Source of the DNA: an uncultured Candidatus Saccharibacteria bacterium
Lineage (GTDB): Bacteria > Patescibacteriota > Minisyncoccia > Ryanbacterales > 2-02-FULL-48-12
Reading direction: 5' to 3'
Length of the DNA: 45,309 bases
NCBI GenBank assembly: GCA_964349275.1
Contig: CAYGFT010000001.1
Location: forward strand, 20,795-66,103
The notes under the pieces are model-generated. The model worked only from the letters and a program-made list of their open reading frames with translations, was not told where the DNA came from and searched no databases. Shown here piece after piece: positions 10,256 through 44,953 of this stretch. The position numbers and the translations under genes were made by a program. The first letter of the stretch is position 1; each line of letters starts with the position of its first letter.

Positions 10256-10258
10256 TTC

Positions 10259-11014: not shown

Positions 11015-11016
11015 TC

Positions 11017-12069: not shown

Positions 12070-12078
12070 TAGCAATAT

Positions 12079-12103
12079 AAAACCCGTCTTGCCAACGAGT
12101 TTT
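12079..12103. terminator. Weak bidirectional hairpin between convergent operons
   Basis: AAAACCCGT-cttgcca-ACGAGTTTT forms a 9-bp stem with one mismatch. It is flanked by an A-run and a T-run, and lies between the stops at 12069 (+) and 12138 (-). Confidence 0.3.
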
Positions 12104-12137
12104 ACTAAGAGTAGTGTGATCCTAAGCAAGAAGCATC

Positions 12138-12815: not shown

Positions 12816-12821
12816 GGTGTT

Positions 12822-17853: not shown

Positions 17854-17857
17854 TACC

Positions 17858-28134: not shown

Positions 28135-28794
28135 TTAGTACTCAAGAACCTCTTGTTTGTTCATAAACTCTATTCGTTCGACTCCAGGTATGCTCCCCAA
28201 ATCTTGCATGGCCTGCTCCGCGGCATCGCGCGAGCTATTTTGTAGACTGATTACATATTTGTAAAGTCCATTTTTGAGGAGGGAGGAGGATCGCAGGATA
28301 TATGAGTGGTCGAGAGCAGCTTTATCTTTAAAGGAAAGCGCTGAAGTCGCATAGAGCACGAGTATGTGCTCCCGGATATTGCGCCGGTAGAACCCTCCGT
28401 AGTTAAAAATGAGAATAAGAGACGAGATGGTAAGGGTCACGGTAATGGCGGGAATGTACATACTACGTCCTACGGTAACGCCTATCAGAAGCGCAAATAA
28501 TAAGAATATTGTGTCGCGCGTTTCTTTGATAACCGATCGGAATCTAATCAGGGTAAATATGATAAAGAAGGCAAATGCGCCGAAGATATTTTGAGTTACT
28601 ACCATTACGATAGCGCATGACATGGTGCCTATCAGCGCCATAGAGTATAGAGAAGATTGTGCATAGGAAAGGGTGTTGTGTGTTTTCTGGTATACCCAGG
28701 AGGTAAACAAAAGGAGTCCTGCCGCGATACAGATATTCATGACGACAAGGCCGGCATTTACTTCAGTCTCTGCAAGAATAAAAAAGTTTTCCAT
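28135..28794 (-). CDS. DUF4956-family membrane protein (second copy)
   Basis: LIRFRSVIKETRDTIFLLFAL. It has the same TM architecture and the same C-terminal ...EY ending as 12138..12815. Confidence 0.75.
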   Translation of the reverse strand: MENFFILAETEVNAGLVVMNICIAAGLLLFTSWVYQKTHNTLSYAQSSLYSMALIGTMSCAIVMVVTQNIFGAFAFFIIFTLIRFRSVIKETRDTIFLLFALLIGVTVGRSMYIPAITVTLTISSLILIFNYGGFYRRNIREHILVLYATSALSFKDKAALDHSYILRSSSLLKNGLYKYVISLQNSSRDAAEQAMQDLGSIPGVERIEFMNKQEVLEY

Positions 28795-28799
28795 AGAAT

Positions 28800-30155: not shown

Positions 30156-30185
30156 CGAAATTATACTAACATAAGACCACAATTC

Positions 30186-33465: not shown

Positions 33466-33472
33466 GGTTTGG

Positions 33473-34900
33473 GTGGGTATCAACTACGTACTGTCCGCTA
33501 AACATTTTTCTGCAGTGTATATTCCAACAAAGCAAACCTATCTATTTCTGTTTGGCATCGCGTTACTTGGTGTAGTCTTCTCGCTCCTGTTTGGCGTTGT
33601 AACGGGGAATATCTACAAGACAGAGTTTGGCGATTACGCTGATGATGCCGAATCTTACAATCGCATGGCGCTCAACCTGCTTGATCGAGGGAGTTTTGCG
33701 GATGCCGAGGGGACCTACTATTATTTTGTACGCCGATCTCCGGGGTATCCGCTCCTCCTGGCTGGTGCGTATGCGGTTGCCAGATCTCCTATTTCTGCCT
33801 GGGTTCTAAATGGTATTTTTTTTGCAGTCTTGGTGTTCCTTATCTATGGTATTAGTCGTATAGCTCTCGGCGGTCAGTGGCTATTCATCCCCGCATTTCT
33901 ATTTTCTATCGGCTGGTTTACGGCTACATTTGTGGTACGCGTAGGATCCGATATCCCTGGCACGTTTCTCGCGCTTTTGTTTCTTTGGTCATTTTTTCGG
34001 CATATGCAACTACCTGCGGATATCCGGTTTCTTCTCCTCTCGGGGGTTTCCCTTGGCGCTTTTGCTTTGGTGCGTCCGGGCGGACTCTATTTTATTCCGG
34101 TGGCGTTCGTATTTCTTCTCTTCTCGAAAAAACAGCAATGGATTACGGTCTGTGTACGGGCGGCGTGCTTTGTCGTTGCGGCTCTGCTTGTTGTTGCGCC
34201 GTGGATGTGGTGGAGCTATAAAATATTCGGCACGCCACAGCTTGCAAGTGCAGGATATATGCTTGCGTGGCGGTCTCAAGAAGCAATTGCGCCACCTGCG
34301 CGTCTTACCGCGTCCGGTATCGCCGCTATCTTTGGGGATGTGGTTGCGGATTACCTATTTCCTGGATATGCGGATGCACCGGACCCCTATGTACACGTGG
34401 AAGATGTATTCCGGCGCAGGGTTGCGATGAAAGTATCGGGGATCCCGGATATCGAGGTTGAGGCTATTTTTTACCGTGAAGGGATAGAGAATATGAAAAA
34501 TCATCCGTACACTTTTTTACTTACAGGGATTTTTAACCTATTCCGATTGCATACGCCCCCAAATCTGGAGGGTATCTCGATGTTCCATTTTCTTGCAGAA
34601 AGCAATCATGCGGCATGGCTCCGTTTGTCTCTCAATCTGGTACTTCGAACGGTATGGTACGCTTTCCTTTTTATTGCCGTTTGGGGTGCAGTTCGCTATA
34701 GTAAAAGCGAGAATGCGTCATGGCGGATTTGGGGGATGCCAGCACTTTTCGCTCTTTATACGGTTGTCCTCCAGGCGCTATTTACCAATCCGGAATTTCG
34801 CTATATGTTGCCGCTCTCGCCGCTGTATCTGATAGGTTTTGTACTTGGAATCAAGGCCATTATTGAAAGGTTTTTTATCCCCCCCCAACCAACAACCTAA
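33473..34900 (+). CDS. Polytopic GT-C/ArnT-like membrane glycosyltransferase
   Basis: First loop GDYADDAESYNRMALNLLDRGSF, followed by many TM segments. There is no in-frame ATG after the asnB stop until well inside the protein, so I propose the GTG at 33473. The start is uncertain. Confidence 0.65.
   Translation: MGINYVLSAKHFSAVYIPTKQTYLFLFGIALLGVVFSLLFGVVTGNIYKTEFGDYADDAESYNRMALNLLDRGSFADAEGTYYYFVRRSPGYPLLLAGAYAVARSPISAWVLNGIFFAVLVFLIYGISRIALGGQWLFIPAFLFSIGWFTATFVVRVGSDIPGTFLALLFLWSFFRHMQLPADIRFLLLSGVSLGAFALVRPGGLYFIPVAFVFLLFSKKQQWITVCVRAACFVVAALLVVAPWMWWSYKIFGTPQLASAGYMLAWRSQEAIAPPARLTASGIAAIFGDVVADYLFPGYADAPDPYVHVEDVFRRRVAMKVSGIPDIEVEAIFYREGIENMKNHPYTFLLTGIFNLFRLHTPPNLEGISMFHFLAESNHAAWLRLSLNLVLRTVWYAFLFIAVWGAVRYSKSENASWRIWGMPALFALYTVVLQALFTNPEFRYMLPLSPLYLIGFVLGIKAIIERFFIPPQPTT
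34879..34886 (+). repeat. C8 homopolymer at the junction of the GT-C and GT2 genes
   Basis: Counted directly: ttt ttt atc ccc ccc caa. It lies 12 nt before the GT-C stop and 25 nt before the GT2 ATG. Confidence 0.9.
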
Positions 34901-34910
34901 TATTCACCAG

Positions 34911-35846
34911 ATGAAATCCCAGCTTGTTTCGATTGTTGTTCCCGTTTACAACGAAGAAGAAAATATTTCTGAGATGCTCCGAAGGCTTGATGTTGTTTTT
35001 GCGCCGCTGGAGGGTATTGAGCATGAGATAATTTTTGTTGACGATGCAAGTATTGATCGCACACTGCAGATCCTTCGTGAGGCTGCAGGTTTCCATAAGC
35101 ATATAAAGGTAGTCCGGTTCTCACGGAACTTCGGTCATCAAAGTGCGGTGACTGCAGGACTTGAGTGTGCAAAGGGTGATGCGGTAGTGGTGATTGACGG
35201 CGATTTGCAGGATCCGCCCGAGGTTGTTTCCGCATTTATTCACAAATGGCGCGAAGGGTATGATGTGGTATACGGCATCCGCAAGAAGCGGAAAGAGTGG
35301 TGGGGTAAGCGTTTAGCGTACTACGCATTTTATCGTCTAATGCGTGCAAGCGCACAAGGAGTAGAGATGCCGGTGGATGCGGGGGATTTTAGTTTGATTT
35401 CTCGGCGTGTGCTCGATGTAATCAAATCCCTACCGGAGCGCAACCGATTTATTCGGGGGTTGCGTGCTTGGGTCGGATTTCGCCAGATGGGTATCCCTTA
35501 TGAGCGTCATGAACGCTATGCAGGCAAGCCAAAGTATACCTTTGTACGCCTGGTGCGTCTTGCCTATGACGGTCTGTTTTCGTTCTCCTCGGTACCACTG
35601 CATATGATTACATTTTTGGGTGCAGTGGTATCGGCAACCTCTTTTTTTGCTATTCTTGTTGTCCTGTATTTCCGTCTATTCACCGATCTTTCTATCCCCG
35701 GGTTTGCTTCGTTGGCGACGATTACATTGTTCCTCGGCGGCATTCAACTCCTCTCTATCGGGGTTATTGGTGAATATGTAGGACGGGTATATGACGAGAC
35801 CAAGCGCCGACCCAATTATGTTATCGAGGAAAAAATAGGTCTGTAG
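34911..35846 (+). CDS. Polyprenyl-phosphate glycosyltransferase, GT2 ArnC/GtrB-like with two C-terminal TM helices
   Basis: VSIVVPVYNEEENI, IIFVDDASIDRT, VVIDGDLQDPPE. The C-terminal hydrophobic pair is FLGAVVSATSFFAILVVLYF and LATITLFLGGIQLLSIGVIGEY. Confidence 0.85.
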   Translation: MKSQLVSIVVPVYNEEENISEMLRRLDVVFAPLEGIEHEIIFVDDASIDRTLQILREAAGFHKHIKVVRFSRNFGHQSAVTAGLECAKGDAVVVIDGDLQDPPEVVSAFIHKWREGYDVVYGIRKKRKEWWGKRLAYYAFYRLMRASAQGVEMPVDAGDFSLISRRVLDVIKSLPERNRFIRGLRAWVGFRQMGIPYERHERYAGKPKYTFVRLVRLAYDGLFSFSSVPLHMITFLGAVVSATSFFAILVVLYFRLFTDLSIPGFASLATITLFLGGIQLLSIGVIGEYVGRVYDETKRRPNYVIEEKIGL

Positions 35847-35848
35847 CT

Positions 35849-36502
35849 ATGGCACGCGCGGATGTAGTGCTTCTGGGGTGTGCAGATATCTCGCGCGATG
35901 CTTATGCACTCCGCATGCATGATAGTCGTATGGGGCACCTCGCGCTAAAACAGGCATTTGTTGATTTCTCAGGCGGTACGATAGGTAGGGACGCTATATT
36001 AGTGGCCCACCATCCGAGTGGGGCGCCGTACGTAAAAGGGAGTGATGTATACGGTTCTCTCGCTCATACAAAGGGAGTTGGCATAGGAGCGGTCTCGGTT
36101 GGTCCTATTGGTGTTGATGTGGAGTACGCCAAAGATCGTGTATATGCGCAACAGCTTCTTGCTTATACCGCTACAAAGCATGAAGTTGATGAGGTGGCGT
36201 CCCGGATGGCTTTGCCGCTACAGGATTTGGTGGCATATATATGGACGGTCAAAGAGTCTGTGCGTAAGCTCCTCGCTGATGCTCGGCCGTATCACCCAAA
36301 AGAATTTTTTATACGCATGGAAGATCCGGGCGTGTGTACGGTAACGATGTGCACTCACCGTGCTTTGTGGCGAGTGCGCAGTTTTCAAAAAGAACGTTTT
36401 TGGTTTTCTGTGGCTCAAGAATATGCGCCGGACATCGTTTGTCCCTCGGCTGTTTGGCGTATTGCTGATGGACGTAAAATACGCAATAATGCCAGGAGAT
36501 AG
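35849..36502 (+). CDS. 4'-phosphopantetheinyl transferase (Sfp-type)
   Basis: GAPY, SLAHTKG, PIGVDVEY (the GxDxE motif) and WTVKESVRK (the W/FxxKES/AxxK motif). Confidence 0.75.
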   Translation: MARADVVLLGCADISRDAYALRMHDSRMGHLALKQAFVDFSGGTIGRDAILVAHHPSGAPYVKGSDVYGSLAHTKGVGIGAVSVGPIGVDVEYAKDRVYAQQLLAYTATKHEVDEVASRMALPLQDLVAYIWTVKESVRKLLADARPYHPKEFFIRMEDPGVCTVTMCTHRALWRVRSFQKERFWFSVAQEYAPDIVCPSAVWRIADGRKIRNNARR

Positions 36503-36504
36503 CT

Positions 36505-36924
36505 ATGCATATGTATACATTTAGCGGAATAGAGGAGGGGGATACTTTGCAGCGGGAGTACACTCTCACGGAGGAGGTCTACAAGAGTTTCTTGGATGCT
36601 TTTCAGGATACAAGCCCGTTGCATGTCGATGAAACATTTGCTCGAGAGCGTGGGTTTGCAGGCAGAGTCATGCATGGGGCACTTCTGAATGGCTTTGTGT
36701 CTCATTTTGTTGGAGTGGAGTACCCGGGAAAATATGCCATGCTCCAGTCGGTGGATATTCAGTACAAAAATCCAAACTATCTTGGTGATACGATACGGCT
36801 TGAGGCGGAGGTGATACAAAAAGTAGAGGCGCTCAAGGTGGTTATTATCAAAATACTCCTACAGAATGTGACGCAACAAAAAATAGCCGCTACAGCGCGT
36901 GCCCAGGTGGGGATGCTTGAGTAA
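36505..36924 (+). CDS. MaoC-like hotdog-fold dehydratase
   Basis: DTSPLHVDETFARERGFAGRVMHGALL is a hydratase 2-like motif. 139 aa. Confidence 0.75.
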   Translation: MHMYTFSGIEEGDTLQREYTLTEEVYKSFLDAFQDTSPLHVDETFARERGFAGRVMHGALLNGFVSHFVGVEYPGKYAMLQSVDIQYKNPNYLGDTIRLEAEVIQKVEALKVVIIKILLQNVTQQKIAATARAQVGMLE

Positions 36925-37005
36925 AATAAGCAGACGTATGCTGTGAGGTTGAGGATGTAGGTAGATAAATCTTTTGTGAATCGTAATGCATAAATCTTTC
37001 ATCTC

Positions 37006-37725
37006 ATGAACGTTTTTGTTACCGGTGGCTCGGGGGATATAGGCACGGCACTGGTGCGTATTTTGTCTGCACGCGGGGACACCGTGGTATTTACGTATCT
37101 TACACATAAAGATCAAGCGCAAGAACTTGCTCAAGAAACGGGTGCGACGTGTGTGCCGTACGATGCGACAAAGCGTGAGGATGTTGAGCGTATTGTACAG
37201 CTTATCGAGGCGAGCGCATTTGACGGACTCGTGCACAATGCCCTCTCTCGCCCCAAGCGTGGATCGTTGCTCTCTATGAACGTCGGCGATTTTGTCTCCT
37301 ATCAATCAGAAGGGCTTATGCCGGTATTTCGCATCTCGCAAGTATTTGCTCAAAAAGCCAAAGATGAGAAGCGTGCAGGTGCTATCGTGAGCGTACTTTC
37401 ATCCTACGTGTTGGGTATGCCGCCACAAAAACTTATTGAGTATGTGACACTCAAGTACGCTCTGCTCGGTCTTACTCGAGCTATGGCTGCAGAGCTTACG
37501 CCGCAAAATATACGTGTCAACGCCGTTTCCCCGAGTATTATGCGTACCAGCTATACCGGCGATATCCCTGAGCGTCTAATGGAGATGGAGGAGGAGGATG
37601 CATCCATGAAGCGTCTGGCGCGCCCCGAAGAGGTGGCGTCTAGCATTGCATTTCTGCTTTCAGATCAAGCGTCATATATTTCAGGTGCCAATATTCCGAT
37701 CACAGGAGGAGGCGTCGCATGCTAA
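37006..37725 (+). CDS. SDR-family oxidoreductase (3-oxoacyl-ACP reductase-like)
   Basis: VFVTGGSGDIGTAL is the TGxxxGxG motif. S...YVTLK is the catalytic YxxxK. The C-terminus has ISGANIPITGG. Confidence 0.85.
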   Translation: MNVFVTGGSGDIGTALVRILSARGDTVVFTYLTHKDQAQELAQETGATCVPYDATKREDVERIVQLIEASAFDGLVHNALSRPKRGSLLSMNVGDFVSYQSEGLMPVFRISQVFAQKAKDEKRAGAIVSVLSSYVLGMPPQKLIEYVTLKYALLGLTRAMAAELTPQNIRVNAVSPSIMRTSYTGDIPERLMEMEEEDASMKRLARPEEVASSIAFLLSDQASYISGANIPITGGGVAC

Positions 37726-39476
37726 CACCTGATACAAAACATTTGCAATATGCAAATTTGCTCAAGGAGGCAAAAAATCCTGGCGATTTTGTGCATACAA
37801 AAATCCTCAAGATAGCGCTTTTGGGAGACGTAGCGACACAACATCTTGCTCTGATGGTGCGCGCATTATTTGCTCGCGAGCATATAAAGACGGAAATATA
37901 CGAGGGGGGATTTGGCGCGACCGAACTGGAGGTATTCAATCCTGATTCAGCGCTTTATCGTTTTGTGCCGGATATTATTGTGGTACTCCATGCAACGCAC
38001 GGCATGCGTGATCGATATCATAGTCTCGAGAGATCCGCTTTGTTTGCGGTCGAGGCATCCGCGCGCGCCGTGTCTCTCTGGGATGCAATACGAAGTCATT
38101 CGGAGGCTCTGGTCATCCAGTCTAATGTAGCGCTTCCCTATGAGCGACTCTTTGGTCAATACGATCATTATGTGCCTGGATCACTCTCTATGTCTCTTGT
38201 GGATTTTAATCAAAAACTTTCCGAGAAGGTGCGTCTTGCAAAAAACATTCGTGTGCTTGATCTGGAGTATCTCGCTTCTTATGTCGGACGTAAAGACTGG
38301 TTTGATGAAAAAATGTGGGTGATCGGCAAATCCTTATGTGCTCCCGCGTATCTTCCCCATGTGGCCCAAGCTATCACTGATATTGCGCTTTCTCATCAGG
38401 GTAAAGGGGTCAAGTGCCTTATTCTTGATCTTGACAATACACTCTGGGGAGGGGTGGTAGGAGATGATGGCTTGGAGGGCATACAGCTGGGGCATGGAGG
38501 CGAGGGTGAGGCATTTCATACATTCCAGGTATTTTTACTGGCACTAAAAAATCGTGGTATTATTCTTGCGGTATGCAGTAAAAATGAAAAAGAGACGGCA
38601 CTCAAGGTATTTCGTGAGCACCCCGATATGGTTTTGCGTGAAAAAGACATAGCGGTGTTTATGGCAAACTGGCAAAACAAAGCCGACAATATCAAAGAGA
38701 TACAGCGTATACTCAACATCGGATTTGACTCGATGGTATTTCTGGATGACAACCCATTTGAGCGCAATCTTGTGCGGGATCGTCTACCCGAGGTGATAGT
38801 GCCCGAGCTTCCCGAAGACCCGGCAGATTATGTAAAGGCGCTTTCAGAGCTTAATCTTTTTGAAGTAGCTTCGTTCTCCGAAGAGGATGCCAAGCGTGCA
38901 GATATGTATCGTGAGGAGGCGTCTCGGGTGATTGCCAAAGCTTCTTATGCAAGTATCGATGATTACCTAGCCTCACTTGCTATGGAGGGGTGGGTTGCCC
39001 GTTTTGATGAGTTTCATCTGCCGCGTATTGCACAGCTCATACTCCGAAGCAACCAGTTCAATCTCACGACGCGCCGTTACACGGATGCCGAGTGTGCAAA
39101 GTTTATGCAAGACGAAAAAAATTACTATCCTTTTTATGTGACTCTAAAGGATACGTTTGGTGATTACGGCCTCGTGGGCCTTGCCATACTCAAGCGTGAT
39201 GGCATACGCGCTTTTGTGGATACATGGCTCATGAGTTGCCGGGTGCTGGCGCGCGGAGTAGAGGAGCTCATGTTGAATCATGCGGTAGCGCAGGCAAAAG
39301 CCTGGGGATGCACGGAGTTGGGAGGTGAGTATGTCCCAACTACAAAAAATATGATGGTTAAAGATTTTTACCCAAGGTTTGGGTTTGAGCTAGTTTCGGA
39401 TGAGGATGGTCACACGGTATGGAGATTACCGACCGCAACCTATGAGGATAAAAAGATACATATTACGCTTGTGTAG
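37719..39476 (+). CDS. FkbH-like HAD-IIIC phosphatase/acyl-loading protein with a C-terminal GNAT-like domain
   Basis: LILDLDNTLWGGVVGDDG is the HAD motif I in the characteristic FkbH context. AVCSKNE is HAD motif II. 585 aa. It overlaps the SDR stop by 7 nt. Confidence 0.85.
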   Translation: MLTPDTKHLQYANLLKEAKNPGDFVHTKILKIALLGDVATQHLALMVRALFAREHIKTEIYEGGFGATELEVFNPDSALYRFVPDIIVVLHATHGMRDRYHSLERSALFAVEASARAVSLWDAIRSHSEALVIQSNVALPYERLFGQYDHYVPGSLSMSLVDFNQKLSEKVRLAKNIRVLDLEYLASYVGRKDWFDEKMWVIGKSLCAPAYLPHVAQAITDIALSHQGKGVKCLILDLDNTLWGGVVGDDGLEGIQLGHGGEGEAFHTFQVFLLALKNRGIILAVCSKNEKETALKVFREHPDMVLREKDIAVFMANWQNKADNIKEIQRILNIGFDSMVFLDDNPFERNLVRDRLPEVIVPELPEDPADYVKALSELNLFEVASFSEEDAKRADMYREEASRVIAKASYASIDDYLASLAMEGWVARFDEFHLPRIAQLILRSNQFNLTTRRYTDAECAKFMQDEKNYYPFYVTLKDTFGDYGLVGLAILKRDGIRAFVDTWLMSCRVLARGVEELMLNHAVAQAKAWGCTELGGEYVPTTKNMMVKDFYPRFGFELVSDEDGHTVWRLPTATYEDKKIHITLV

Positions 39477-39484
39477 ATATCGAT

Positions 39485-39736
39485 ATGCCTATGAGCCGAG
39501 AAGAGATTAAAACAAAATTAGAGGCGATATTGCGCGATGTATTTGGTGACCCTGCACTCGCTATCACCGAAGCTACTACTGCGTCTGACGTCTCGGATTG
39601 GGATTCACTCAATCACATCAATATTATTGTTGCGGTCGAGGAGGCGTTTGGTATTCGGTTTGCCACCCGCGAGGTCTACGTAGCGAATAATGTGGGAGAG
39701 TTTGTAAACTTGATAGCCAAAAAACTTCAGCCGTAA
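39485..39736 (+). CDS. Acyl carrier protein
   Basis: 83 aa and acidic. The phosphopantetheine attachment context is SDWDSLNHINIIVAVEEAF. Confidence 0.8.
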   Translation: MPMSREEIKTKLEAILRDVFGDPALAITEATTASDVSDWDSLNHINIIVAVEEAFGIRFATREVYVANNVGEFVNLIAKKLQP

Positions 39737-39753
39737 AAGCTAGATATGTTTTT

Positions 39754-40195
39754 ATGAAAGAGCGTCACAAGGTGGTCCCCGCAGTGTATCTTTTTCTCAT
39801 CAAAGACGAAAAGATACTGCTTGGGAGAAGGTGTAATACCAGCTATATGGACGGAAAATATATGGTGCCCCGCGGGACACGTAGAAGTAGGTGAGGCGCT
39901 TACCGCGGCCATGATACGGGAAGCAAAAGAAGAAATCGGCATTGATATACAAAAAGAGGATTTGCGTCTGGTACATGTTTTATATCGCCCCAAGCATGAC
40001 GAGACGGGCGAGCGGATGGATTTTTTCTTTACTGTGCGGGATTGGACGGGGGAGATAGAAAATAAAGAGCCGGAGAAGTGCGATATTCTTGATTGGTTTA
40101 GTGGTGATAGTCTCCCGGAAGAAATCGTTCCTTATGTCAAGCTCGCTTTTGGAAAAAGCTTGGATGGCGTGCTTCTTTCGGAATTTGGATGGTAA
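39754..40195 (+). pseudogene. NUDIX hydrolase disrupted by a +1 frameshift in a C4 run (39868-39871)
   Basis: The frame from ATG 39754 gives MKERHKVVPAVYLFLIKDEKILLGRRCNTSYMDGKYMVP and then a stop at 39892. The next frame continues AGHVEVGEALTAAMIREAKEEIGI, a complete Nudix box Gx5Ex7REUxEExGU, through to 40195. Removing one C joins the two parts. Confidence 0.7.
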
Positions 40196-40247
40196 TTTAT
40201 CAATTTAGATTTCCCCTAACCCTTATACCTCTTACGCCTTTCTCCTC

Positions 40248-41681
40248 ATGCAATTTTACTCCCTTCCATTTCTCCTTGTCCTCGGCGTATCTGCCTTTTT
40301 CTATTATCGCGTCAAGCCCAGGAATCAGGCGGTATATCTCTCGCTTGTCTCTATTATTTTTTATGCGCTTTGGAGTATCCCCTATGCAGTGTTACTGTTT
40401 TTGATTGCGTGGGTTGTTTTTCTTGTCGCAAAGCGGATGGAGTACTCGGTAGAGAATATTAAATACCGCGAAGCCATGTTTGCGGTAGGAGCACTTCTTC
40501 TGGTACTCGGGATTTTTAAGTATGCGGGCGAGCTTGCAGAGTTTTTTTCGGTTGATGCGCCATTCCTCGGCATGCTTGCCCCTGTCGGGATCTCTTACTA
40601 TACATTCAAACTCATAAGCTACGTGGTGGATGTATATAGCGGTAAGCTTGTGCCCGAGAAAAGTTTTGCCATGTTTTTCTCTTATGTTGCGTTTTTCCCT
40701 CAGATTTTGGCGGGACCCATTCAACGGGCGGTTGATTTTTTACCACAAATCTCCTCCCCGCATCCACCCAATGTCTCCATGGTTACCAGTGGTCTCCGAC
40801 TTATCCTTTTTGGGATATTTAAAAAACTGGTCATAGCAGACGCGCTTTCTCTGGTAGTCGCAGAGGGGTTTAAAGAACCCGGATCCTATTCGGGGCTTGA
40901 GCTTCTTATTATAAGTTATCTATTCGCGATACAGCTCTATGCGGATTTCTCGGGTATCACGGATATCGCCATCGGATCGGCGCGGCTCTTTGGTATCACC
41001 ATACCCAAAAATTTCGCCAACCCATTTTATGCTCCGACCATCCAGGATTTTTGGCGGCGGTGGCACATGACGCTCACCGCATGGCTTACGGATTATGTAT
41101 TTTTGCCTTTGCGGATGTATATGCGCTATTGGGGAGCTATTGGGCTCGCGATAAGTATCTTTGTCAATATGGTGCTTATCGGTCTATGGCATGGCGCGAG
41201 TGCCAATTTTATTTTGTTTGGCATATTACAAGCTGTCTATATGATAGTTTCGGTATTTACCCTTAAGGCGAGGGATAGGATGTTTGCTCGTGTTCCGATA
41301 GTACTGCAAAAATTGCGCTCCCTATGGCAACCGATGACTGTGTTCACTTGTATAGCGCTTTCACTGATACTCTTTCGTGCACAGAGTTTTAGAGAAGTGG
41401 CTTTGTTTTTTGGCGGCCTTTCTACTCTTTTGCATGATATATCGCTCCATCATTTGCGTGAGACTCTGGTGGTGACGCTTGGTGATACGCGCCTCGCTGT
41501 GGTGCTCGTCGGGTTGATTCTCATGGAGGCTATACACATAGGCTGGAGTGTCGAGCGGGTAAAGGCATGGATGGTACGTTTACCAAGAGCGCTTCGTTGG
41601 TCGGTGTATTACGCGATGATCATGGCTATCGTGTTTTTTGGAGACCAGACCTCCCGCGCGTTTATTTATTTTCAGTTTTAA
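40248..41681 (+). CDS. MBOAT-family membrane O-acyltransferase (DltB/AlgI/PatA-like)
   Basis: FANPFYAPTIQDFWRRWHMTLTAWLTDYVFLPL and LIGLWHGAS (the conserved His region). 477 aa and polytopic. Confidence 0.9.
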   Translation: MQFYSLPFLLVLGVSAFFYYRVKPRNQAVYLSLVSIIFYALWSIPYAVLLFLIAWVVFLVAKRMEYSVENIKYREAMFAVGALLLVLGIFKYAGELAEFFSVDAPFLGMLAPVGISYYTFKLISYVVDVYSGKLVPEKSFAMFFSYVAFFPQILAGPIQRAVDFLPQISSPHPPNVSMVTSGLRLILFGIFKKLVIADALSLVVAEGFKEPGSYSGLELLIISYLFAIQLYADFSGITDIAIGSARLFGITIPKNFANPFYAPTIQDFWRRWHMTLTAWLTDYVFLPLRMYMRYWGAIGLAISIFVNMVLIGLWHGASANFILFGILQAVYMIVSVFTLKARDRMFARVPIVLQKLRSLWQPMTVFTCIALSLILFRAQSFREVALFFGGLSTLLHDISLHHLRETLVVTLGDTRLAVVLVGLILMEAIHIGWSVERVKAWMVRLPRALRWSVYYAMIMAIVFFGDQTSRAFIYFQF

Positions 41682-41707
41682 AAACTAAGTACCTCCACAT
41701 TCAATTC

Positions 41708-42547
41708 ATGAAAAATTTTGAATTCATGCCTTATGACAGAGTTGTAGGTGTCCAGCCGGATTGGCAGGAGGAGACAGAGAGATTGCTTGCCGCATATTAT
41801 GCGGAACACGGGACGTCGGTTATTGAGGGTTTTGAACTTGAGAAAACCCAACGGGACAAGGAAATTATAAAATTTGCCGAAGACGCTGTATCTGCGTATT
41901 TGCGTGCATATGGCAGGGAGCCAAAATTTGACGTACCACTGGAAAAAATTCACTTTCTTCGAGATGGTGGTACCAAAGAATTTACCCAAGGTAAATTGGG
42001 TGGGGGTGCTCATGCCACCAAGTTTGGTAGTATGCTCGTAGACAGGTCTGACTCGGATATCCAGACAGCTCTTATTACATTTCATGAACTCTTTCACACA
42101 AAATCATACAGTGCTTTGCAGATAACGACGCCGGATATGGAGGGGGTAAAAAAACTTGAGGCTTACCGGAACGGATTTACGGTAACTTCCCGGGATGGCA
42201 GGGAGGAATATTTTCATGATTTTGAGGAAGCAGTCATATCGCTTATGACGAAGCGTTTTTATGATGAAGAAATTTCCCAAAATGAGACGTTTAAAAAAGA
42301 ATTAGATTCCGGATGTATGCCTGATATGAGTCGGACAAAAGAAGCTGGGGGTTTGTCCGGTCTTGTGGATGACATATGGAACTCAAACAGGGATTCTTAT
42401 TCGAGCCGTGAGCAAGTTATGGATATTTTTATCAAAGCTCAAATCGATGGAAATCTCTTGCCGGTCGCTCGTCTTGTTGAAAGTACTTACGGGGAAGGAA
42501 GTTTTCGTGAGCTAGGGGAGATAACAGGTAGAAAAGTCGAAGACTGA
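41708..42547 (+). CDS. Hypothetical soluble protein with an HExxH motif
   Basis: ITFHELFHTKSY is an HExxH motif. No signal peptide or TM segment is seen. I chose the ATG at 41708 because the tracked start (41567) overlaps the MBOAT gene. Confidence 0.5.
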   Translation: MKNFEFMPYDRVVGVQPDWQEETERLLAAYYAEHGTSVIEGFELEKTQRDKEIIKFAEDAVSAYLRAYGREPKFDVPLEKIHFLRDGGTKEFTQGKLGGGAHATKFGSMLVDRSDSDIQTALITFHELFHTKSYSALQITTPDMEGVKKLEAYRNGFTVTSRDGREEYFHDFEEAVISLMTKRFYDEEISQNETFKKELDSGCMPDMSRTKEAGGLSGLVDDIWNSNRDSYSSREQVMDIFIKAQIDGNLLPVARLVESTYGEGSFRELGEITGRKVED

Positions 42548-42559
42548 GACAATAGATAT

Positions 42560-43549
42560 ATGACGAGCTTTGTTAAAAAAATAGTAGTTTTTCTTTTAGG
42601 GCTCCTGCTCATCTTTGGAGTGCTGTCGTATCTGTATTCTTTTCGTGTGGGGTCGCGGGACAATTTTTATGCATTGGTCGATCGTTTTGATGATCCCAGC
42701 ATACAACCCAAAGTGCTGGTACTTGGGGATTCGCGTCCTACATTTGGCATACGCCAAGAGTTTTTGCCTTCGGATATCTATAACTTTAGTTTTCCCAGTG
42801 AGACATACCGCGAGATGTTTTTGAAAGTCGAGTATGCTTTGCAAAAAAAGCCCAGTATCAAATATATTGCGATCCCGATAGATTACCACATGCTCTCGGC
42901 TTTTTATGCGCGGGATAAGGACGCAGGACACATGTATCGCATTGCTTCGTTACAAAACATACGCGCGGTGTATGGGTTTTCTTGGGTAGAGTTTTGCAAA
43001 TCGTTTTTTCATGCATACGTACCGCTTACAGATTCAGAAAATAGATTTTTTTTCATTACGGTTATAAAAAAGGACCTTAGAGCACTTTTTACCCGTCAGC
43101 AAAATCCGCGGAGTATATCTGTAACTCCGTATGGCGATTTGGCACCACTGGAGCACAAACGCTGGGGGGATTTTTCGGATGAGGCAAAATATGCGCTTAC
43201 CAGCCGACGGATAGAGGATCATCTCCTTTCAGGATCTCTCGTGGAGCGGGAGATGGTAGATGCTCTCGATAAACTTTTGTATCTTGCACAAGCTCGAGGT
43301 GTGCAGGTTATTGCGGTGCGTTACCCACTCACTACTGCCTATGAAAATCGGGCACGTAAGCTTGCATTGGCTGAAGTAGAGCATGCATTTGACGAACACG
43401 CCCATAGATTTTTATTGGTACTCAATTATGTTGTATCGTTTGAGTCACACGAGGATGATTTGTTCCAGGACGCCGATCATCTCAATACTACGGGCGCCGA
43501 GGTGTTTACGAATATGTTTGTAAGGGATTTACACACTATGCTTAAATAA
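42560..43549 (+). CDS. Membrane-anchored SGNH-like protein (DltD/AlgJ/PatB-like partner of the MBOAT)
   Basis: N-terminal TM segment IVVFLLGLLLIFGVLSYLY. Block I is VLVLGDSRPTFG. The C-terminal DADHLNTTGAEVF is a DxxH block V. Confidence 0.6.
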   Translation: MTSFVKKIVVFLLGLLLIFGVLSYLYSFRVGSRDNFYALVDRFDDPSIQPKVLVLGDSRPTFGIRQEFLPSDIYNFSFPSETYREMFLKVEYALQKKPSIKYIAIPIDYHMLSAFYARDKDAGHMYRIASLQNIRAVYGFSWVEFCKSFFHAYVPLTDSENRFFFITVIKKDLRALFTRQQNPRSISVTPYGDLAPLEHKRWGDFSDEAKYALTSRRIEDHLLSGSLVEREMVDALDKLLYLAQARGVQVIAVRYPLTTAYENRARKLALAEVEHAFDEHAHRFLLVLNYVVSFESHEDDLFQDADHLNTTGAEVFTNMFVRDLHTMLK

Positions 43550-43555
43550 GGCCAT

Positions 43556-44953
43556 ATGGAGGTCAGGGCACTTTTTTCATTTGAACGGGTATATAAAGTC
43601 ATGCTTATCGTAGTGCTTGCTACGGCGCTTTTTCTGGTGCTATTCAGGTTTTTTGACCATGATGAGTTTGAAGCTATACATAGCATTTGGAAGATAGCGC
43701 AGGGCGAAAGAATCTATACTGACTTTGCCAATCAACACCATCCCCTCATGTATTACGCCTCTCTGCCGGTGTGGTATCTATTTGGTGAATCGGTCGCCAT
43801 GATTATAGCTATGCGGATGATTATGTTTTTCTTTTTCATAGGCATGCTCTGGTGTACATACCGTATGGCGCAAGACGTGTGGGGAAGGGAGGTCGGGTAT
43901 ATCAGTGTCTTATTTCTCGCGTCTACTATGATGTTTCTACAAAAGGCGATCGAAGTGCGACCCGATGTGCCACAGACCTTTTTTACGTTGTGGAGTGGTG
44001 TCTATCTCGTGCGTTACATTATGCATCGCGAGCGATCGTATCTCTATGCGAGTGCTATCCTCATGGGGATATCCTTTCTTTTTTTGCAAAAAGCATTATT
44101 TGCCATTCTGTTTGTGGGGGCGGTGCTCCTGTATGCCGTGCACAAAAAAGTCTTACCCATCAAGGATATATTTTTGTACGGCGGGTTGTTTGTATTGGTG
44201 CAGGCGCCCTATTTCATCTATCTTCTCTGGTCTGGTCAGCTACAGTCCTACATTGTCTGGAATTGGATTATGAATGCCAAACTTGATGTAGTATTTCCAC
44301 CGTATAAATTTATGGTAGCTGCATTTACCGAGAACAGTATCCTCTGGCTTTTCTATGCCTTTGGGATGCTCTGGTTTCTCAAAACTCCCTTGCAAAAATA
44401 TGTGGGAGCCGCTTCGATGTTCCTATTCCTCTCGGTATTTTTGGTGCCCGCGCCGAGCCAGCAATACTATATGATGGCTTTGCCGTTTGTGGCTGTGGTA
44501 TCAGCCGCTGGCTTCTATGGGATATGGAGAGATACGCCAAAGGCATATACACTCGGTATGGTGCTTGCGGTAGCGATGCCCTTTGTATCATTGGGCTATG
44601 CCATGACCAACTCCTTGAGCGGCGGCGAGTACAATGATCGCCAGCTCAAAAAGATCCAGTACGTGCTTTCCCACACCAAGCCTGATGACTTTGTCTACGA
44701 TGGGGATATTCAATTTAATATATTTCGAAAAGACTTAGACTTTTTTTGGTTTTCGGTCAGTCCGCATGTAGGCCAGCTTTCCACATACAAAAAGTGGAAG
44801 GGGTATGAATATGACATTTACCAACTGATTGAACAAAAAAAGCCAAAGATAATCTCCACCTACACGATCAGCAAAAACCTCTCCGACCCGCGCATCGTTA
44901 GTTTCTATATCCAGTCAGAAGAGTACCCTGATCTCTATATACGGAGGGATTGA
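43556..44953 (+). CDS. Polytopic GT-C/ArnT-like membrane glycosyltransferase
   Basis: First-loop acidic motif FFDHDEFEAIHSIW, ~11 TM segments, and a soluble C-terminal tail. Confidence 0.7.
   Translation: MEVRALFSFERVYKVMLIVVLATALFLVLFRFFDHDEFEAIHSIWKIAQGERIYTDFANQHHPLMYYASLPVWYLFGESVAMIIAMRMIMFFFFIGMLWCTYRMAQDVWGREVGYISVLFLASTMMFLQKAIEVRPDVPQTFFTLWSGVYLVRYIMHRERSYLYASAILMGISFLFLQKALFAILFVGAVLLYAVHKKVLPIKDIFLYGGLFVLVQAPYFIYLLWSGQLQSYIVWNWIMNAKLDVVFPPYKFMVAAFTENSILWLFYAFGMLWFLKTPLQKYVGAASMFLFLSVFLVPAPSQQYYMMALPFVAVVSAAGFYGIWRDTPKAYTLGMVLAVAMPFVSLGYAMTNSLSGGEYNDRQLKKIQYVLSHTKPDDFVYDGDIQFNIFRKDLDFFWFSVSPHVGQLSTYKKWKGYEYDIYQLIEQKKPKIISTYTISKNLSDPRIVSFYIQSEEYPDLYIRRD

What the first reader, a model, noticed from the sequence alone, without database searches (positions are those of the whole stretch)
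35849..43549. Dlt-like carrier-protein-dependent acylation module in which an FkbH-type loader and tailoring enzymes replace the DltA ligase
Seen in the sequence: nine tightly packed same-strand genes. These are an Sfp-type PPTase (GVDVE, WTVKESVRK), a MaoC hotdog dehydratase and an SDR reductase (TGGSGDIG, YVTLK). They are followed by an FkbH/HAD-IIIC protein (LILDLDNTLWGGVVGDDG) with a GNAT-like tail, an 83-aa ACP (DWDSL) and a frameshifted NUDIX gene. The block ends with an MBOAT (WRRWHMTL, WHGAS), an HExxH protein and a TM-anchored SGNH-like protein (LGDSR...DADHLN). Established knowledge: in teichoic-acid D-alanylation, the MBOAT DltB takes the acyl group from the carrier protein DltC, and the SGNH-fold DltD acts on the outer face. 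FkbH-type enzymes load a glyceryl (C3) unit from a glycolytic intermediate onto a dedicated ACP. Inference: a C3 hydroxy-acid is built on the ACP. It could be glyceryl, or a lactyl/pyruvyl-type derivative after MaoC dehydration and SDR reduction. The MBOAT/SGNH pair would then pass it across the membrane onto a surface glycan. There is no KS, AT or adenylation domain, so this is not a PKS or NRPS. I am not aware of a characterised MBOAT pathway fed by an FkbH-loaded ACP.
Basis: partly seen in the sequence, partly recalled or inferred. Interest (0 to 1): 0.8.

Follow-up and report, generated by a model that had tools for sequence, protein, structure and literature searches.

The report
Carrier-protein-fed surface-sugar acylation cassette (FkbH–ACP–MBOAT–SGNH)
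This is a conserved operon, found in at least 15 bacterial phyla but seemingly undescribed, that most likely builds a three-carbon hydroxy-acid on a small carrier protein and passes it through a membrane enzyme pair onto a cell-surface sugar polymer, which would be a third way of supplying the acyl group to such enzyme pairs.

Summary
Window 35849-43549 holds nine tightly packed + strand genes with the stated motifs.

- An ACP follows the FkbH-like gene in 73 of 80 species-level genomes from about 15 phyla. An MBOAT lies within 10 kb in 62 of 80, usually directly after the ACP and followed by a membrane-anchored SGNH-fold protein.
- No modular PKS or NRPS gene, malonyl transacylase or adenylation enzyme lies nearby.
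- The FkbH-like protein keeps all HAD catalytic residues and the one cysteine shared with PKS-type FkbH enzymes.
- Carrier-linked MBOATs separate from carrier-less ones in a tree.

Three corrections apply.
- The NUDIX pseudogene and the HExxH gene are lineage-specific insertions. They are absent from the closest relatives, so the core has seven genes.
- The MBOAT is not DltB-type. It is PatA/AlgI-type and ends in a fused FIYFQF acyl-shuttle motif, so no DltX is needed.
- MaoC and SDR are optional tailoring genes, present in roughly a quarter of loci and fused to each other in eight.

The acyl group (glyceryl, probably converted to lactyl here) and the acceptor glycan are inferred, not shown. 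No paper describing this cassette was found. I rate it a new variant of a known kind. It is widespread and can be tested in Sinorhizobium meliloti, whose pSymB carries it.

The parts
35849..36502 (+). Sfp-type 4'-phosphopantetheinyl transferase. It presumably converts the dedicated ACP to its holo form.
   Evidence: PF01648 ACPS, 1e-07, above cutoff. GVDVE and WTVKESVRK motifs are in the translation. A PPTase sits at the same position in near relative L173 but not in most distant loci.
36505..36924 (+). MaoC-type single-hotdog dehydratase, an optional tailoring enzyme. Proposed to dehydrate glyceryl-ACP to enol-pyruvoyl/pyruvoyl-ACP.
   Evidence: PF01575, 2e-13. Found next to FkbH/ACP in 21 of 80 loci. 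Fused to an SDR in the c13 family, which occurs in 8 loci. Same position in L170 and L173.
37006..37725 (+). FabG-like SDR ketoreductase, an optional tailoring enzyme. Proposed to reduce pyruvoyl-ACP to lactyl-ACP.
   Evidence: adh_short_C2, 2e-43, and below-cutoff FabG matches. TGGSGDIG and YVTLK (YxxxK) motifs. Overlaps the FkbH start by 7 nt.
37719..39476 (+). FkbH-type loader: an FkbH_N domain, a HAD-IIIC phosphatase domain and a C-terminal acyl-transfer half. Proposed to take a glyceryl unit from 1,3-bisphosphoglycerate via Cys507 and pass it to the ACP. Key codons: D237 38427-38429, D239 38433-38435, C507 39237-39239.
   Evidence: TIGR01686, 310 bits (cutoff 146.65), plus PF21211. Residues 21-388 match PDB 3SLR (B. 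fragilis BF1531, uncharacterized) at 3e-92. Catalytic residues are invariant in A1 and A5.
39485..39736 (+). Dedicated 83-aa acyl carrier protein. Ser41 (39605-39607), in an invariant W-D-S motif, is the phosphopantetheine site.
   Evidence: PF00550. Directly follows FkbH in most loci (73 of 80 have it). W39-D40-S41 are invariant in 73 aligned sequences (window plus 72 locus ACPs). E. coli AcpP detects a homologue in only 2 of these loci. Best PDB match is 2LML, a putative ACP; no DltC was listed.
39754..40195 (+). Frameshifted NUDIX gene, a lineage-specific insertion and not a core part.
   Evidence: Two overlapping frames; PF00293. Absent from the nearest relatives L170-L173 and from all 80 genome loci.
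40248..41681 (+). PatA/AlgI-type MBOAT. Proposed to move the acyl group from acyl-ACP in the cytoplasm to its own C-terminal tyrosine. Catalytic His315 (WHGAS) is at 41190-41192.
   Evidence: PF03062, 7e-21. TIGR04091 DltB gives 172.8 bits, below the 375 cutoff. Matches DltB structures 6BUG and 8JEM at about 1e-27, with the WHG histidine aligned. H273, H315, F472, Y474 and F477 are invariant in A4. Groups with carrier-linked MBOATs.
41661..41678 (+). C-terminal FIYFQF hexapeptide, the FxYxxF 'acyl shuttle' motif. Tyr474 is the proposed acyl-tyrosine intermediate.
   Evidence: These are the last six residues of the MBOAT. 48 of 57 MBOATs in FkbH loci end in F.Y..F. The motif's role was shown for PatA and DltX (PMC12148441).
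41708..42547 (+). HExxH (HELFH) protein of unknown family, inserted between the MBOAT and its SGNH partner. Not a core part.
   Evidence: No Pfam or NCBIfam match. Found only in L001, another assembly of the same sequence. Absent in L170-L173, where the SGNH-like gene directly follows the MBOAT.
42560..43549 (+). N-terminally membrane-anchored SGNH-fold acyltransferase, playing the DltD/PatB role. Ser58 (GDS, 42731-42733) and Asp304-x-x-His307 (DADH, His at 43478-43480) form the proposed catalytic residues.
   Evidence: AF2 model with pLDDT 97.2. Foldseek top hits are a GDSL lipase, PatB and DltD, probability 1.0. S58 and H307 are invariant in 73 diverse homologues. The family has 2286 representatives. 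A family member is the next gene after the MBOAT for 38 of 57 MBOATs.
34839..35846 (+). Context: GT2 glycosyltransferase. I read it as polyprenyl-phosphate-sugar synthase-like from its domain layout; this is my inference. It ends 2 nt before the PPTase gene.
   Evidence: PF00535, 2e-32.
43556..44953 (+). Context: PMT_2 (GT-C) membrane glycosyltransferase, starting 6 nt after the SGNH-like gene. Marks the likely extracytoplasmic glycan pathway that is acylated.
   Evidence: PF13231, 2e-09. Same position in relatives L171 and L001.

Best explanation
The core is a seven-gene operon module: PPTase, MaoC, SDR, FkbH-like loader, ACP, MBOAT and SGNH-like transferase. It sits inside a large surface-glycan locus.

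Proposed mechanism:
1. The PPTase makes holo-ACP.
2. The FkbH-type enzyme takes a C3 unit from 1,3-bisphosphoglycerate. It removes the phosphate with its HAD site, holds glyceryl on Cys507, and transfers it to ACP Ser41-phosphopantetheine.
3. In this organism MaoC removes the 3-OH to give (enol)pyruvoyl-ACP, and the SDR reduces it to lactyl-ACP. Loci without these two genes would deliver glyceryl.
4. The MBOAT (His315) takes the acyl group from acyl-ACP at the cytoplasmic face and puts it on Tyr474 of its own C-terminal FIYFQF motif at the outer face.
5. The membrane-anchored SGNH-fold protein (Ser58, Asp304/His307) picks it up and esterifies a hydroxyl of an extracytoplasmic glycan made by the neighbouring GT2/GT-C glycosyltransferases.

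Shown here: domain identities, conservation of catalytic residues, the fold of the SGNH partner, conservation of gene order across phyla, absence of PKS/NRPS genes, and separation of carrier-linked from carrier-less MBOATs.

Inferred: the substrate of the loader, the MaoC/SDR chemistry, ACP as the MBOAT's donor, and the acceptor.
For: Family assignments.

FkbH catalytic set: residues are invariant in 20 diverse homologues. They are shared with the FkbH homologue of a B. thuringiensis NRPS/PKS cluster (taken to be zwittermicin) and with a Streptomyces PKS-cluster FkbH.

FkbH chemistry (1,3-BPG to glyceryl-S-enzyme to glyceryl-ACP) is described for OzmB in PMC9057759. FkbH loading domains that give glycerate on a carrier protein, or a D-lactate-ACP product, are described in PMC13122637 and PMC7901079.

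Gene order FkbH-ACP-(MaoC-SDR)-MBOAT-SGNH recurs in 80 genomes from about 15 phyla: ACP in 73 of 80, MBOAT in 62 of 80. It also occurs on S. meliloti pSymB next to KPS export genes.

MaoC-SDR fusion proteins occur in 8 loci.

48 of 57 MBOATs end in FxYxxF. The acyl-tyrosine shuttle mechanism is shown for PatA and DltX.

SGNH partner: pLDDT 97 model matching PatB and DltD, with invariant Ser and His.

MBOAT tree: all 34 carrier-less MBOATs fall on one side. The other side holds 68 carrier-linked MBOATs plus 1 of unknown context, and the window's MBOAT lies there.

Context is a glycan locus with a Wzx flippase, GT1/GT2/GT4 and four PMT_2 GT-C enzymes.
Against: - There is no biochemical evidence for any step.
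- 18 of 80 FkbH-ACP loci have no MBOAT within 10 kb, so the acyl-ACP can feed other acceptors.
- 13 carrier-linked MBOATs fall on the carrier-less side of the tree (10 FkbH-linked, 2 with an adenylation enzyme plus ACP, 1 with an ACP only). The tree is neighbour-joining without support values, and the two samples come from different databases.
- The loader shares only about 29-35% identity with PKS/NRPS-type FkbH enzymes and carries an extra N-terminal domain that the 359-aa Bacillus homologue lacks. Its substrate could therefore differ.
- MaoC and the SDR are not homologous to the PKS DH/KR domains that I recall being invoked for lactyl formation.
- No ACP-MBOAT interface could be modelled.
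- Insertion of two unrelated genes, one of them a pseudogene, inside the operon could mean the cassette is decaying in this organism, although all seven core ORFs are intact.
Confidence: 0.6

Rival explanations
1. There are two independent modules that merely sit together. The FkbH/ACP/MaoC/SDR genes make an acyl-ACP used in the cytoplasm, for example for N- or O-acylation of a nucleotide sugar or lipid-linked intermediate by some other transferase. The MBOAT-SGNH pair is an ordinary acetyl-CoA-dependent O-acetylation system of the PatA/AlgI kind.
For: The MBOAT has the PatA/AlgI architecture with a fused FxYxxF motif. Most of its metagenomic relatives at 30-38% identity are plain MBOAT-SGNH pairs without any ACP. 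18 of 80 FkbH-ACP loci lack an MBOAT.
Against: The ACP-then-MBOAT adjacency is kept across about 15 phyla, and no other conserved acyltransferase is present in the cassette. Carrier-linked MBOATs, including those paired with an adenylation enzyme plus ACP and drawn from the same metagenome sample as the carrier-less ones, cluster together and away from the carrier-less ones. The Dlt pathway is a precedent for an MBOAT that uses a carrier-protein thioester.
Confidence: 0.15
2. The pathway logic is the same (loader to ACP to MBOAT to SGNH to polymer), but the FkbH-like enzyme loads something other than a glycerate-derived C3 unit. The product would then be neither glyceryl nor lactyl.
For: Identity to PKS/NRPS-type FkbH is only about 29-35%. 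An extra N-terminal FkbH_N domain of unknown role is present. Related loci carry very varied tailoring genes: methyltransferase, VOC/glyoxalase, B12-radical SAM, split transketolase plus aldo-keto reductase.
Against: The protein scores well above the curated FkbH-domain cutoff. Every HAD catalytic residue and the single universally conserved cysteine are retained. MaoC (beta-elimination) followed by a ketoreductase fits a 2,3-dihydroxyacyl thioester chemically; this last point is inference.
Confidence: 0.2
3. The block is part of a cryptic polyketide or non-ribosomal peptide natural-product cluster that uses an FkbH-derived starter or extender unit.
For: FkbH enzymes are best known from PKS/NRPS clusters.
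Against: The window has no KS, AT, adenylation or condensation homologue. Across 80 related loci with 10-kb flanks there is one stand-alone FabF, five FabH-like ORFs (in four loci), no FabD and no EntE/EntF-like enzyme. The entire 45-kb window is glycan biosynthesis.
Confidence: 0.02

Closest known systems
[quoted passage not shown]
   Same: A dedicated carrier protein is encoded immediately before an MBOAT, followed by a membrane-anchored SGNH-fold transferase. The MBOAT aligns with DltB structures, including the catalytic His. The SGNH partner's model matches DltD structures. The overall logic is the same: thioester on a carrier, then MBOAT, then acyl-tyrosine, then SGNH serine, then polymer.
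   Different: There is no DltA-type adenylation enzyme anywhere; an FkbH/HAD-type loader takes its place. The MBOAT scores below the DltB equivalog cutoff (172.8 against 375). It has about 135 extra C-terminal residues ending in the FxYxxF motif, so no DltX microprotein is needed. The carrier resembles ACPs, not DltC. Tailoring enzymes probably act on the carrier-bound acyl group. The cassette occurs in both Gram-negative and Gram-positive phyla.
PatA/PatB, AlgI/AlgJ/AlgX and WssH/WssI MBOAT-SGNH O-acetylation systems
   Same: The MBOAT has the fused C-terminal FxYxxF acyl-shuttle hexapeptide and the conserved His. The partner is an extracytoplasmic SGNH-fold protein, with PatB among the top structural matches. 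Some related loci use an AlgX-type (PF16822) or GDSL-type (PF13472) partner instead.
   Different: Those systems use acetyl-CoA and, according to PMC12148441 (2025), 'lack a similar carrier protein'. Here a dedicated ACP, its loader and a PPTase are co-conserved with the MBOAT. Carrier-linked MBOATs also form a separate group.
FkbH/OzmB/ZmaN glyceryl-ACP synthases of methoxymalonyl- and hydroxymalonyl-ACP, tetronate and trans-AT PKS loading pathways
   Same: The protein has the FkbH domain above the curated cutoff, the full HAD catalytic set, the conserved LMSCRV cysteine and an adjacent dedicated ACP. On-carrier tailoring of the C3 unit has precedents: methylation and sulfation in suomilide, and a D-lactate-ACP product listed for FkbH loading modules.
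   Different: The product is not handed to a KS or C domain, because none is present. The FkbI/FkbK-type oxidation enzymes that OzmD and OzmG represent in the methoxymalonyl-ACP pathway were not seen among the family matches for window ORFs, although I did not search for them specifically. The downstream partner is an MBOAT. Identity to PKS-type members is about 29-35%, whereas MBOAT-linked members share 40-70% with one another.

Membership tests
FkbH domain family (TIGR01686; bifunctional glyceryl transferase/phosphatase) | Score above the curated family cutoff | tested here: met
   310.1 bits against a cutoff of 146.65, covering residues 231-558.
FkbH domain family (TIGR01686; bifunctional glyceryl transferase/phosphatase) | HAD catalytic motifs: DxDxT, a Ser/Thr, a Lys and an acidic pair | tested here: met
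   D237, D239, T241, S287, K321, D343 and D344 are invariant in A1 and A5.
FkbH domain family (TIGR01686; bifunctional glyceryl transferase/phosphatase) | Cysteine that carries the acyl-S-enzyme intermediate | tested here: inconclusive
   Cys507 (LMSCRV) is the only cysteine conserved from this protein through to the Bacillus NRPS/PKS-cluster homologue and the Streptomyces homologue. I could not confirm from a paper that this is the residue mapped experimentally.
FkbH domain family (TIGR01686; bifunctional glyceryl transferase/phosphatase) | Loads glyceryl from 1,3-bisphosphoglycerate onto a dedicated ACP | not testable with these tools
   An adjacent dedicated ACP is present. The activity itself needs an enzyme assay.
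Dlt D-alanylation system | DltA adenylation enzyme that loads the carrier | tested here: not met
   No EntE/EntF-like adenylation homologue in the window or in the 80 related loci.
Dlt D-alanylation system | DltB equivalog MBOAT | tested here: not met
   TIGR04091 gives 172.8 bits, below the 375 cutoff. The protein is homologous to DltB structures at about 1e-27 but has an extra C-terminal region.
Dlt D-alanylation system | Separate DltX microprotein carrying the FxYxxF tyrosine | tested here: not met
   The motif is fused to the MBOAT C-terminus (FIYFQF). This is the PatA/AlgI arrangement.
Dlt D-alanylation system | DltD-like membrane-anchored SGNH-fold transferase | tested here: met
   N-terminal helix plus SGNH fold. 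DltD structures 3BMA, 7DXM, 6PFX and 6O93 are among the top Foldseek hits, probability 1.0. This holds at fold level only; sequence identity is about 10%.
PatA/AlgI-type MBOAT-SGNH O-acylation pair | MBOAT with conserved catalytic His and a C-terminal FxYxxF acyl-shuttle motif | tested here: met
   H315, F472, Y474 and F477 are invariant. 48 of 57 related MBOATs end in the motif.
PatA/AlgI-type MBOAT-SGNH O-acylation pair | Acyl-CoA donor, with no dedicated carrier protein | tested here: not met
   A dedicated ACP, loader and PPTase are co-conserved with the MBOAT. Actual donor use is not testable here.
SGNH/GDSL hydrolase superfamily | SGNH fold with a block I Ser (GDS) and a block V Asp-x-x-His | tested here: met
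   Model pLDDT 97.2. SGNH structures are the top hits. S58 and H307 are invariant and G56 and D57 nearly so. DADH lies at residues 304-307. The block II Gly and block III Asn were not examined.
Modular PKS / NRPS cluster | KS, AT, adenylation or condensation domains | tested here: not met
   None in the window. Almost none in the 80 related loci.

The most novel reading that the evidence does not exclude
Bacterial MBOAT-SGNH envelope-acylation machines have a third, widespread way of obtaining their acyl group. It would stand beside acetyl-CoA (PatA, AlgI, WssH) and D-alanyl-DltC (Dlt). In this route an FkbH-type enzyme diverts a glycolytic C3 unit onto a dedicated ACP, optional enzymes tailor it on the carrier (to lactyl, methylated forms and others), and a PatA-type MBOAT with a fused tyrosine shuttle exports it. 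The result would be a so far unrecognised class of glyceroyl or lactyl esters on surface glycans. The bacteria concerned range from gut Bacteroidota and Clostridia to Sinorhizobium meliloti, Leptospiraceae and Myxococcota.
Probability: 0.5. Interest if true: 0.8.

Novelty: new variant of a known kind. Interest (0 to 1): 0.7.

Why it matters
O-acyl decorations of envelope polymers change how bacteria resist lysozyme, cationic peptides, phages and immunity. Known examples are peptidoglycan and alginate O-acetylation and teichoic-acid D-alanylation.

The most recent mechanistic paper I could read states that MBOAT/SGNH pathways other than Dlt lack a carrier protein (PMC12148441, 2025). This cassette argues otherwise. 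It predicts a new acyl chemistry on surface glycans in hundreds of species, including host-associated Bacteroidota and Clostridia and the model symbiont S. meliloti.

The cassette would also link central glycolysis (1,3-bisphosphoglycerate) directly to surface decoration. It would extend FkbH biochemistry beyond natural-product assembly lines.

The prediction is directly testable. The cassette is small, its intermediates can be read by intact-protein MS, and genetically tractable hosts carry it.

Tried and rejected
- PKS/NRPS reading: rejected. No KS, AT, A or C domains in the window or around homologues.
- NUDIX and HExxH as pathway parts: rejected. They are absent from the closest relatives and from all 80 genome loci.
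- Sequence-only identification of the SGNH-like protein: failed. phmmer and a 6-sequence profile against PDB found nothing meaningful. The word-indexed protein search found only 5 homologues, and the first AF2 model was poor (pLDDT 63). The exhaustive profile search supplied 73 sequences, and these gave the pLDDT 97 model.
- Search for a DltX-like microprotein near the five short MBOATs that lack the motif (L065, L070, L071, L072, L074): none found. This remains unexplained.
- Taxonomic placement of the window: not resolved. No cluster member carries a name. The best RmlB homologues are about 70% identical and unnamed. There are no tRNA or rRNA genes.
- Promoter and terminator scan: uninformative, with promoter-like sites at the chance level.
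FkbH+MBOAT, HAD-IIIC+MBOAT, FkbH+O-antigen, FkbH-like+polysaccharide+ACP, MBOAT+meliloti+ACP and MBOAT+SGNH+ACP returned nothing on such a cassette. One search was wasted on a poorly chosen term. Schultz et al. 2023 (PMC10664464) is not held.
- S. meliloti 1021 and 2011 pSymB records carry no annotation in the plasmid table, so I used strain ml28 instead.
- An ACP-MBOAT complex could not be modelled.

Full report
**1. What is in the window**

Profile searches confirm eight of the nine assignments:
- Sfp-type PPTase (PF01648).
- MaoC hotdog (PF01575).
- FabG-like SDR.
- FkbH-type protein: TIGR01686 at 310 bits against a cutoff of 146.65, with PF21211 FkbH_N in front and TIGR01681 HAD-IIIC inside.
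- 83-aa carrier protein (PF00550).
- NUDIX fragment.
- MBOAT: PF03062. The best NCBIfam match is DltB, but at 172.8 bits it is far below the 375 cutoff.
- SGNH-like protein: only a sub-threshold DUF1574 match.

The HExxH protein matches nothing.

The NUDIX gene really is split between two overlapping frames near 39867, and two other assemblies show the same split. The HExxH gene most likely starts at 41708, as called in L001, not at 41567. No separate GNAT domain is detected; the 'tail' is the C-terminal half of the FkbH domain.

The sequence comes from an uncultured organism that I could not place taxonomically.

**2. Context**

The whole 45-kb window is a surface-glycan locus. It holds dTDP-sugar enzymes, GT1/GT2/GT4 transferases, a Wzx-type flippase, a sugar C-methyltransferase and other methyltransferases, a polysaccharide deacetylase, a carbamoyltransferase, an AsnB-like amidotransferase and four PMT_2 (GT-C) membrane glycosyltransferases. 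A GT2 gene ends 2 nt before the PPTase gene, and a PMT_2 gene starts 6 nt after the SGNH-like gene. No KS, AT or adenylation homologue exists anywhere in the window.

**3. Is the FkbH-ACP-MBOAT linkage real?**

The FkbH-like protein belongs to a very large, well-conserved family. The search returned its maximum of 8000 hits, and all 120 listed are at least 50% identical.

I analysed the best 80, at 40-51% identity. They come from about 15 phyla by record title: Myxococcota, Acidobacteriota, Spirochaetota, Alpha- and Gammaproteobacteria, Bacillota, Bacteroidota, Omnitrophota, Desulfobacterota, Bdellovibrionota, Planctomycetota, Nitrospirota, Cyanobacteriota, Verrucomicrobiota, Elusimicrobiota and Dormiibacterota.

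Searching their 10-kb flanks with the window's proteins gave these counts:

| Homologue | Loci of 80 | Note |
|---|---|---|
| ACP | 73 | nearly always directly downstream of FkbH |
| MBOAT | 62 | usually directly after the ACP |
| MaoC | 21 | |
| SDR | 16 | |
| NUDIX or HExxH | 0 | |

De novo clustering of the flanking genes gave the recurrent order FkbH-ACP-(MaoC-SDR)-MBOAT-X, where X is a 300-480-aa protein.

E. coli AcpP detects a homologue in only two of these loci. The cassette ACP is therefore its own family, with an invariant W-D-S motif around the phosphopantetheine serine.

The same cassette lies on Sinorhizobium meliloti pSymB in the order MBOAT, X, ACP, FkbH-like. It sits beside an rkpR-type polysaccharide export gene, an ABC-transporter pair and a capsular polysaccharide biosynthesis gene.

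**4. What belongs to the module?**

The closest relatives share 62-70% identity in FkbH and about 50% in the SGNH-like protein. Their gene order is [PPTase]-MaoC-SDR-FkbH-ACP-MBOAT-SGNH-like-PMT_2, with no NUDIX and no HExxH gene. Those two genes are therefore insertions specific to this lineage, and one of them is a pseudogene. The core here is seven genes.

MaoC and SDR are optional across the family. They are fused into one protein in eight loci, which argues that they act consecutively.

Other loci carry different tailoring genes in the same place: a methyltransferase, a VOC/glyoxalase-fold protein, a B12-radical SAM enzyme, or a split transketolase plus an aldo-keto reductase. This is what one would expect if a carrier-bound acyl group is being diversified.

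**5. The loader**

All HAD catalytic residues (D237, D239, T241, S287, K321, D343, D344) and Cys507 in LMSCRV are invariant in 20 diverse family members. They also align with two PKS/NRPS-context homologues. One is the 359-aa homologue inside a Bacillus thuringiensis hybrid NRPS/PKS cluster, which I take from its gene content to be the zwittermicin cluster. The other is a Streptomyces PKS-cluster homologue.

Cys507 is the only cysteine conserved across all of these, so it is the likely acyl-S-enzyme site.

The chemistry of the family is described for OzmB: 1,3-bisphosphoglycerate, then (phospho)glyceryl-S-enzyme, then glyceryl-ACP (PMC9057759). FkbH-like loading domains that place glycerate on a carrier for further on-carrier tailoring, or that are listed as giving a D-lactate-ACP product, are described in PMC13122637 and PMC7901079.

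The N-terminal two thirds of the protein match PDB 3SLR, an uncharacterized Bacteroides fragilis protein.

MBOAT-linked members share 40-70% identity with the window protein, whereas PKS/NRPS-linked ones share about 29-35%.

**6. The MBOAT**

It aligns with DltB crystal structures, including the catalytic histidine (WHGAS against GFWHG). However, it extends about 135 residues further and ends in FIYFQF.

This is the FxYxxF 'acyl-shuttle' hexapeptide, and its tyrosine is the covalent acyl carrier. In the Dlt system it sits on the separate microprotein DltX. In PatA, AlgI and similar enzymes it is fused to the MBOAT (PMC12148441). 48 of 57 MBOATs in FkbH loci end in this motif, and H315, F472, Y474 and F477 are invariant. 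Mechanistically, then, the MBOAT is PatA/AlgI-type, not DltB-type.

The same paper states that MBOAT/SGNH pathways other than Dlt 'lack a similar carrier protein'. To test whether this MBOAT is simply an acetyl-CoA enzyme that happens to lie nearby, I anchored a metagenome scan on the MBOAT itself. Among its best 80 relatives, most are plain MBOAT-SGNH pairs with no ACP. Eight have an ACP plus an adenylation enzyme directly upstream. One (L160) has a FkbH, and two with truncated upstream flanks have MaoC, SDR and an ACP (L096, L103).

Nearest-neighbour analysis gave these results:
- 64 of 70 FkbH-linked MBOATs have a FkbH-linked nearest neighbour.
- None of the 34 carrier-less MBOATs has one.
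- 6 of the 8 adenylation+ACP-linked MBOATs are nearest to another carrier-linked MBOAT.

A neighbour-joining tree gives a split with all 34 carrier-less MBOATs on one side. The other side holds 68 carrier-linked MBOATs plus one of unknown context, and the window's MBOAT lies there.

Caveats are that there are no support values, that the two samples come from different databases, and that 13 carrier-linked MBOATs sit on the 'wrong' side.

**7. The SGNH partner**

Sequence methods alone failed. An exhaustive profile search then found 2286 family representatives. An alignment of 73 of them has invariant Ser58 (in GDS) and His307 (in D-A-D-H, the SGNH block V pattern). A profile search of PDB gave weak hits, all of them SGNH proteins.

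With that alignment AlphaFold gave a model of pLDDT 97.2 with an N-terminal membrane helix. Its best PDB matches are a GDSL-like lipase, PatB and four DltD structures, all at probability 1.0.

An iterated profile of this family recognises the gene following 38 of 57 MBOATs in the FkbH loci and many partners in the carrier-less pairs as well. Other loci use AlgX-type or classical GDSL partners instead.

**8. Exclusion of PKS/NRPS**

Across the 80 loci with 10-kb flanks there is one stand-alone FabF, five FabH-like ORFs (in four loci), no FabD and no EntE/EntF-type enzyme.

**9. Most likely mechanism**

1. The PPTase activates the ACP.
2. The FkbH-type enzyme loads a glyceryl unit from 1,3-BPG via Cys507.
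3. MaoC eliminates the 3-hydroxyl, which is the normal beta-elimination chemistry of this family, giving enol-pyruvoyl and then pyruvoyl-ACP.
4. The SDR reduces this to lactyl-ACP.
5. The MBOAT (His315) transfers the acyl group to Tyr474 at the outer face.
6. The SGNH-fold enzyme (Ser58/His307) moves it onto a hydroxyl of the glycan built by the adjacent GT2/GT-C enzymes.

Steps 1, 2, 5 and 6 are supported by conserved residues, gene order and precedent. Steps 3 and 4 are chemical inference. The acceptor is inferred from context only.

My confidence that FkbH-ACP-MBOAT-SGNH is one functional unit is about 0.8. That the acyl group derives from glycerate is about 0.6, and that it is lactyl in this organism is about 0.4.

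**10. Comparison and novelty**

The system works like Dlt in using a carrier-protein donor. It works like PatA/AlgI in using a fused tyrosine shuttle. It works like PKS FkbH pathways in how the carrier is loaded. It is a full member of none of the three (see the membership table).

Ten full-text searches found no description of it. The library lacks most subscription journals, so prior description cannot be excluded.

I rate it a new variant of a known kind. It is widespread, it contradicts a recent general statement in the field, and it can be tested in tractable organisms. Interest 0.7.

Noticed in passing
window 41708-42547 (+): A 279-aa protein with an HELFH (HExxH) motif and no Pfam or NCBIfam match is inserted between the MBOAT and its SGNH partner. 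I saw no obvious signal peptide or TM segment on reading the sequence. It is absent from the closest relatives and from all 80 related loci. Its function is unknown.
   Followed up: partly
window 39754-40195 (+): A NUDIX gene is split by a frameshift near 39867, at a CCCCGCGGG run. The same split is called in two other assemblies. Like the HExxH gene, it is an insertion into the cassette that relatives lack.
   Followed up: yes
window 18449-19594 (-): A second, orphan member of the same SGNH-like family (profile E 3e-06; weak Lipase_GDSL_2 match). It has no MBOAT next to it.
   Followed up: no
window 12138-15841 (-) and 28135-30182 (-): Two sets of CotH-kinase-like and DUF4956 genes lie inside the glycan locus. 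The first set also has a VTC-domain protein, and its CotH protein carries a beta-helix domain. Their role here is unknown.
   Followed up: no
window 16036-18271 (+): A carbamoyltransferase (Carbam_trans_N and Carbam_trans_C domains) is followed by a small SxtJ-like protein. This suggests the glycan is also O-carbamoylated.
   Followed up: no
window 5017-7805, 33440-34900, 43556-44953 (+): One 45-kb locus holds four PMT_2-type GT-C membrane glycosyltransferases, an unusually high number. It points to extensive extracytoplasmic glycosylation.
   Followed up: no
L166 (S. meliloti ml28 pSymB) 8642-13677: S. meliloti pSymB carries MBOAT (ending in FLYQGF), a 409-aa TM protein with GGS...DPGH motifs, an ACP and a FkbH-like gene. 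They lie next to an rkpR-type export gene, an ABC-transporter pair and a capsular polysaccharide biosynthesis gene. The 409-aa gene is annotated 'TonB-dependent receptor', which looks like a mis-annotation of an SGNH/DltD-like partner. In strain 1021 the FkbH match is in two pieces.
   Followed up: partly
L095, L100, L105, L117, L125, L147, L153, L159 (metagenome loci): A second non-Dlt carrier-dependent class: an adenylation enzyme and an ACP lie directly upstream of a PatA-type MBOAT that ends in FxYxxF, and an SGNH-family partner was detected downstream in five of the eight. These MBOATs cluster with the FkbH-linked ones.
   Followed up: partly
L021, L036, L038, L054, L056, L081: Clostridia, Treponema, Desulfovibrio and Verrucomicrobiota versions of the cassette add the N- and C-terminal halves of a split transketolase plus an aldo-keto reductase beside MaoC. 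This suggests a different carrier-bound acyl chemistry.
   Followed up: no
L065, L070, L071, L072, L074: Five FkbH/ACP-linked MBOATs are short (390-428 aa) and lack the C-terminal FxYxxF motif. A simple search found no DltX-like small ORF nearby. How these shuttle the acyl group is unexplained.
   Followed up: partly
L003, L009, L019, L042: An AsnB-like amidotransferase lies within 10 kb of FkbH in four loci. In L003 and L042 no MBOAT is present and a MaoC-SDR fusion or other genes accompany it. The window also has an AsnB-like gene, at 31570-33465. The acyl-ACP may feed a different, possibly amide-forming, acceptor in some organisms.
   Followed up: no
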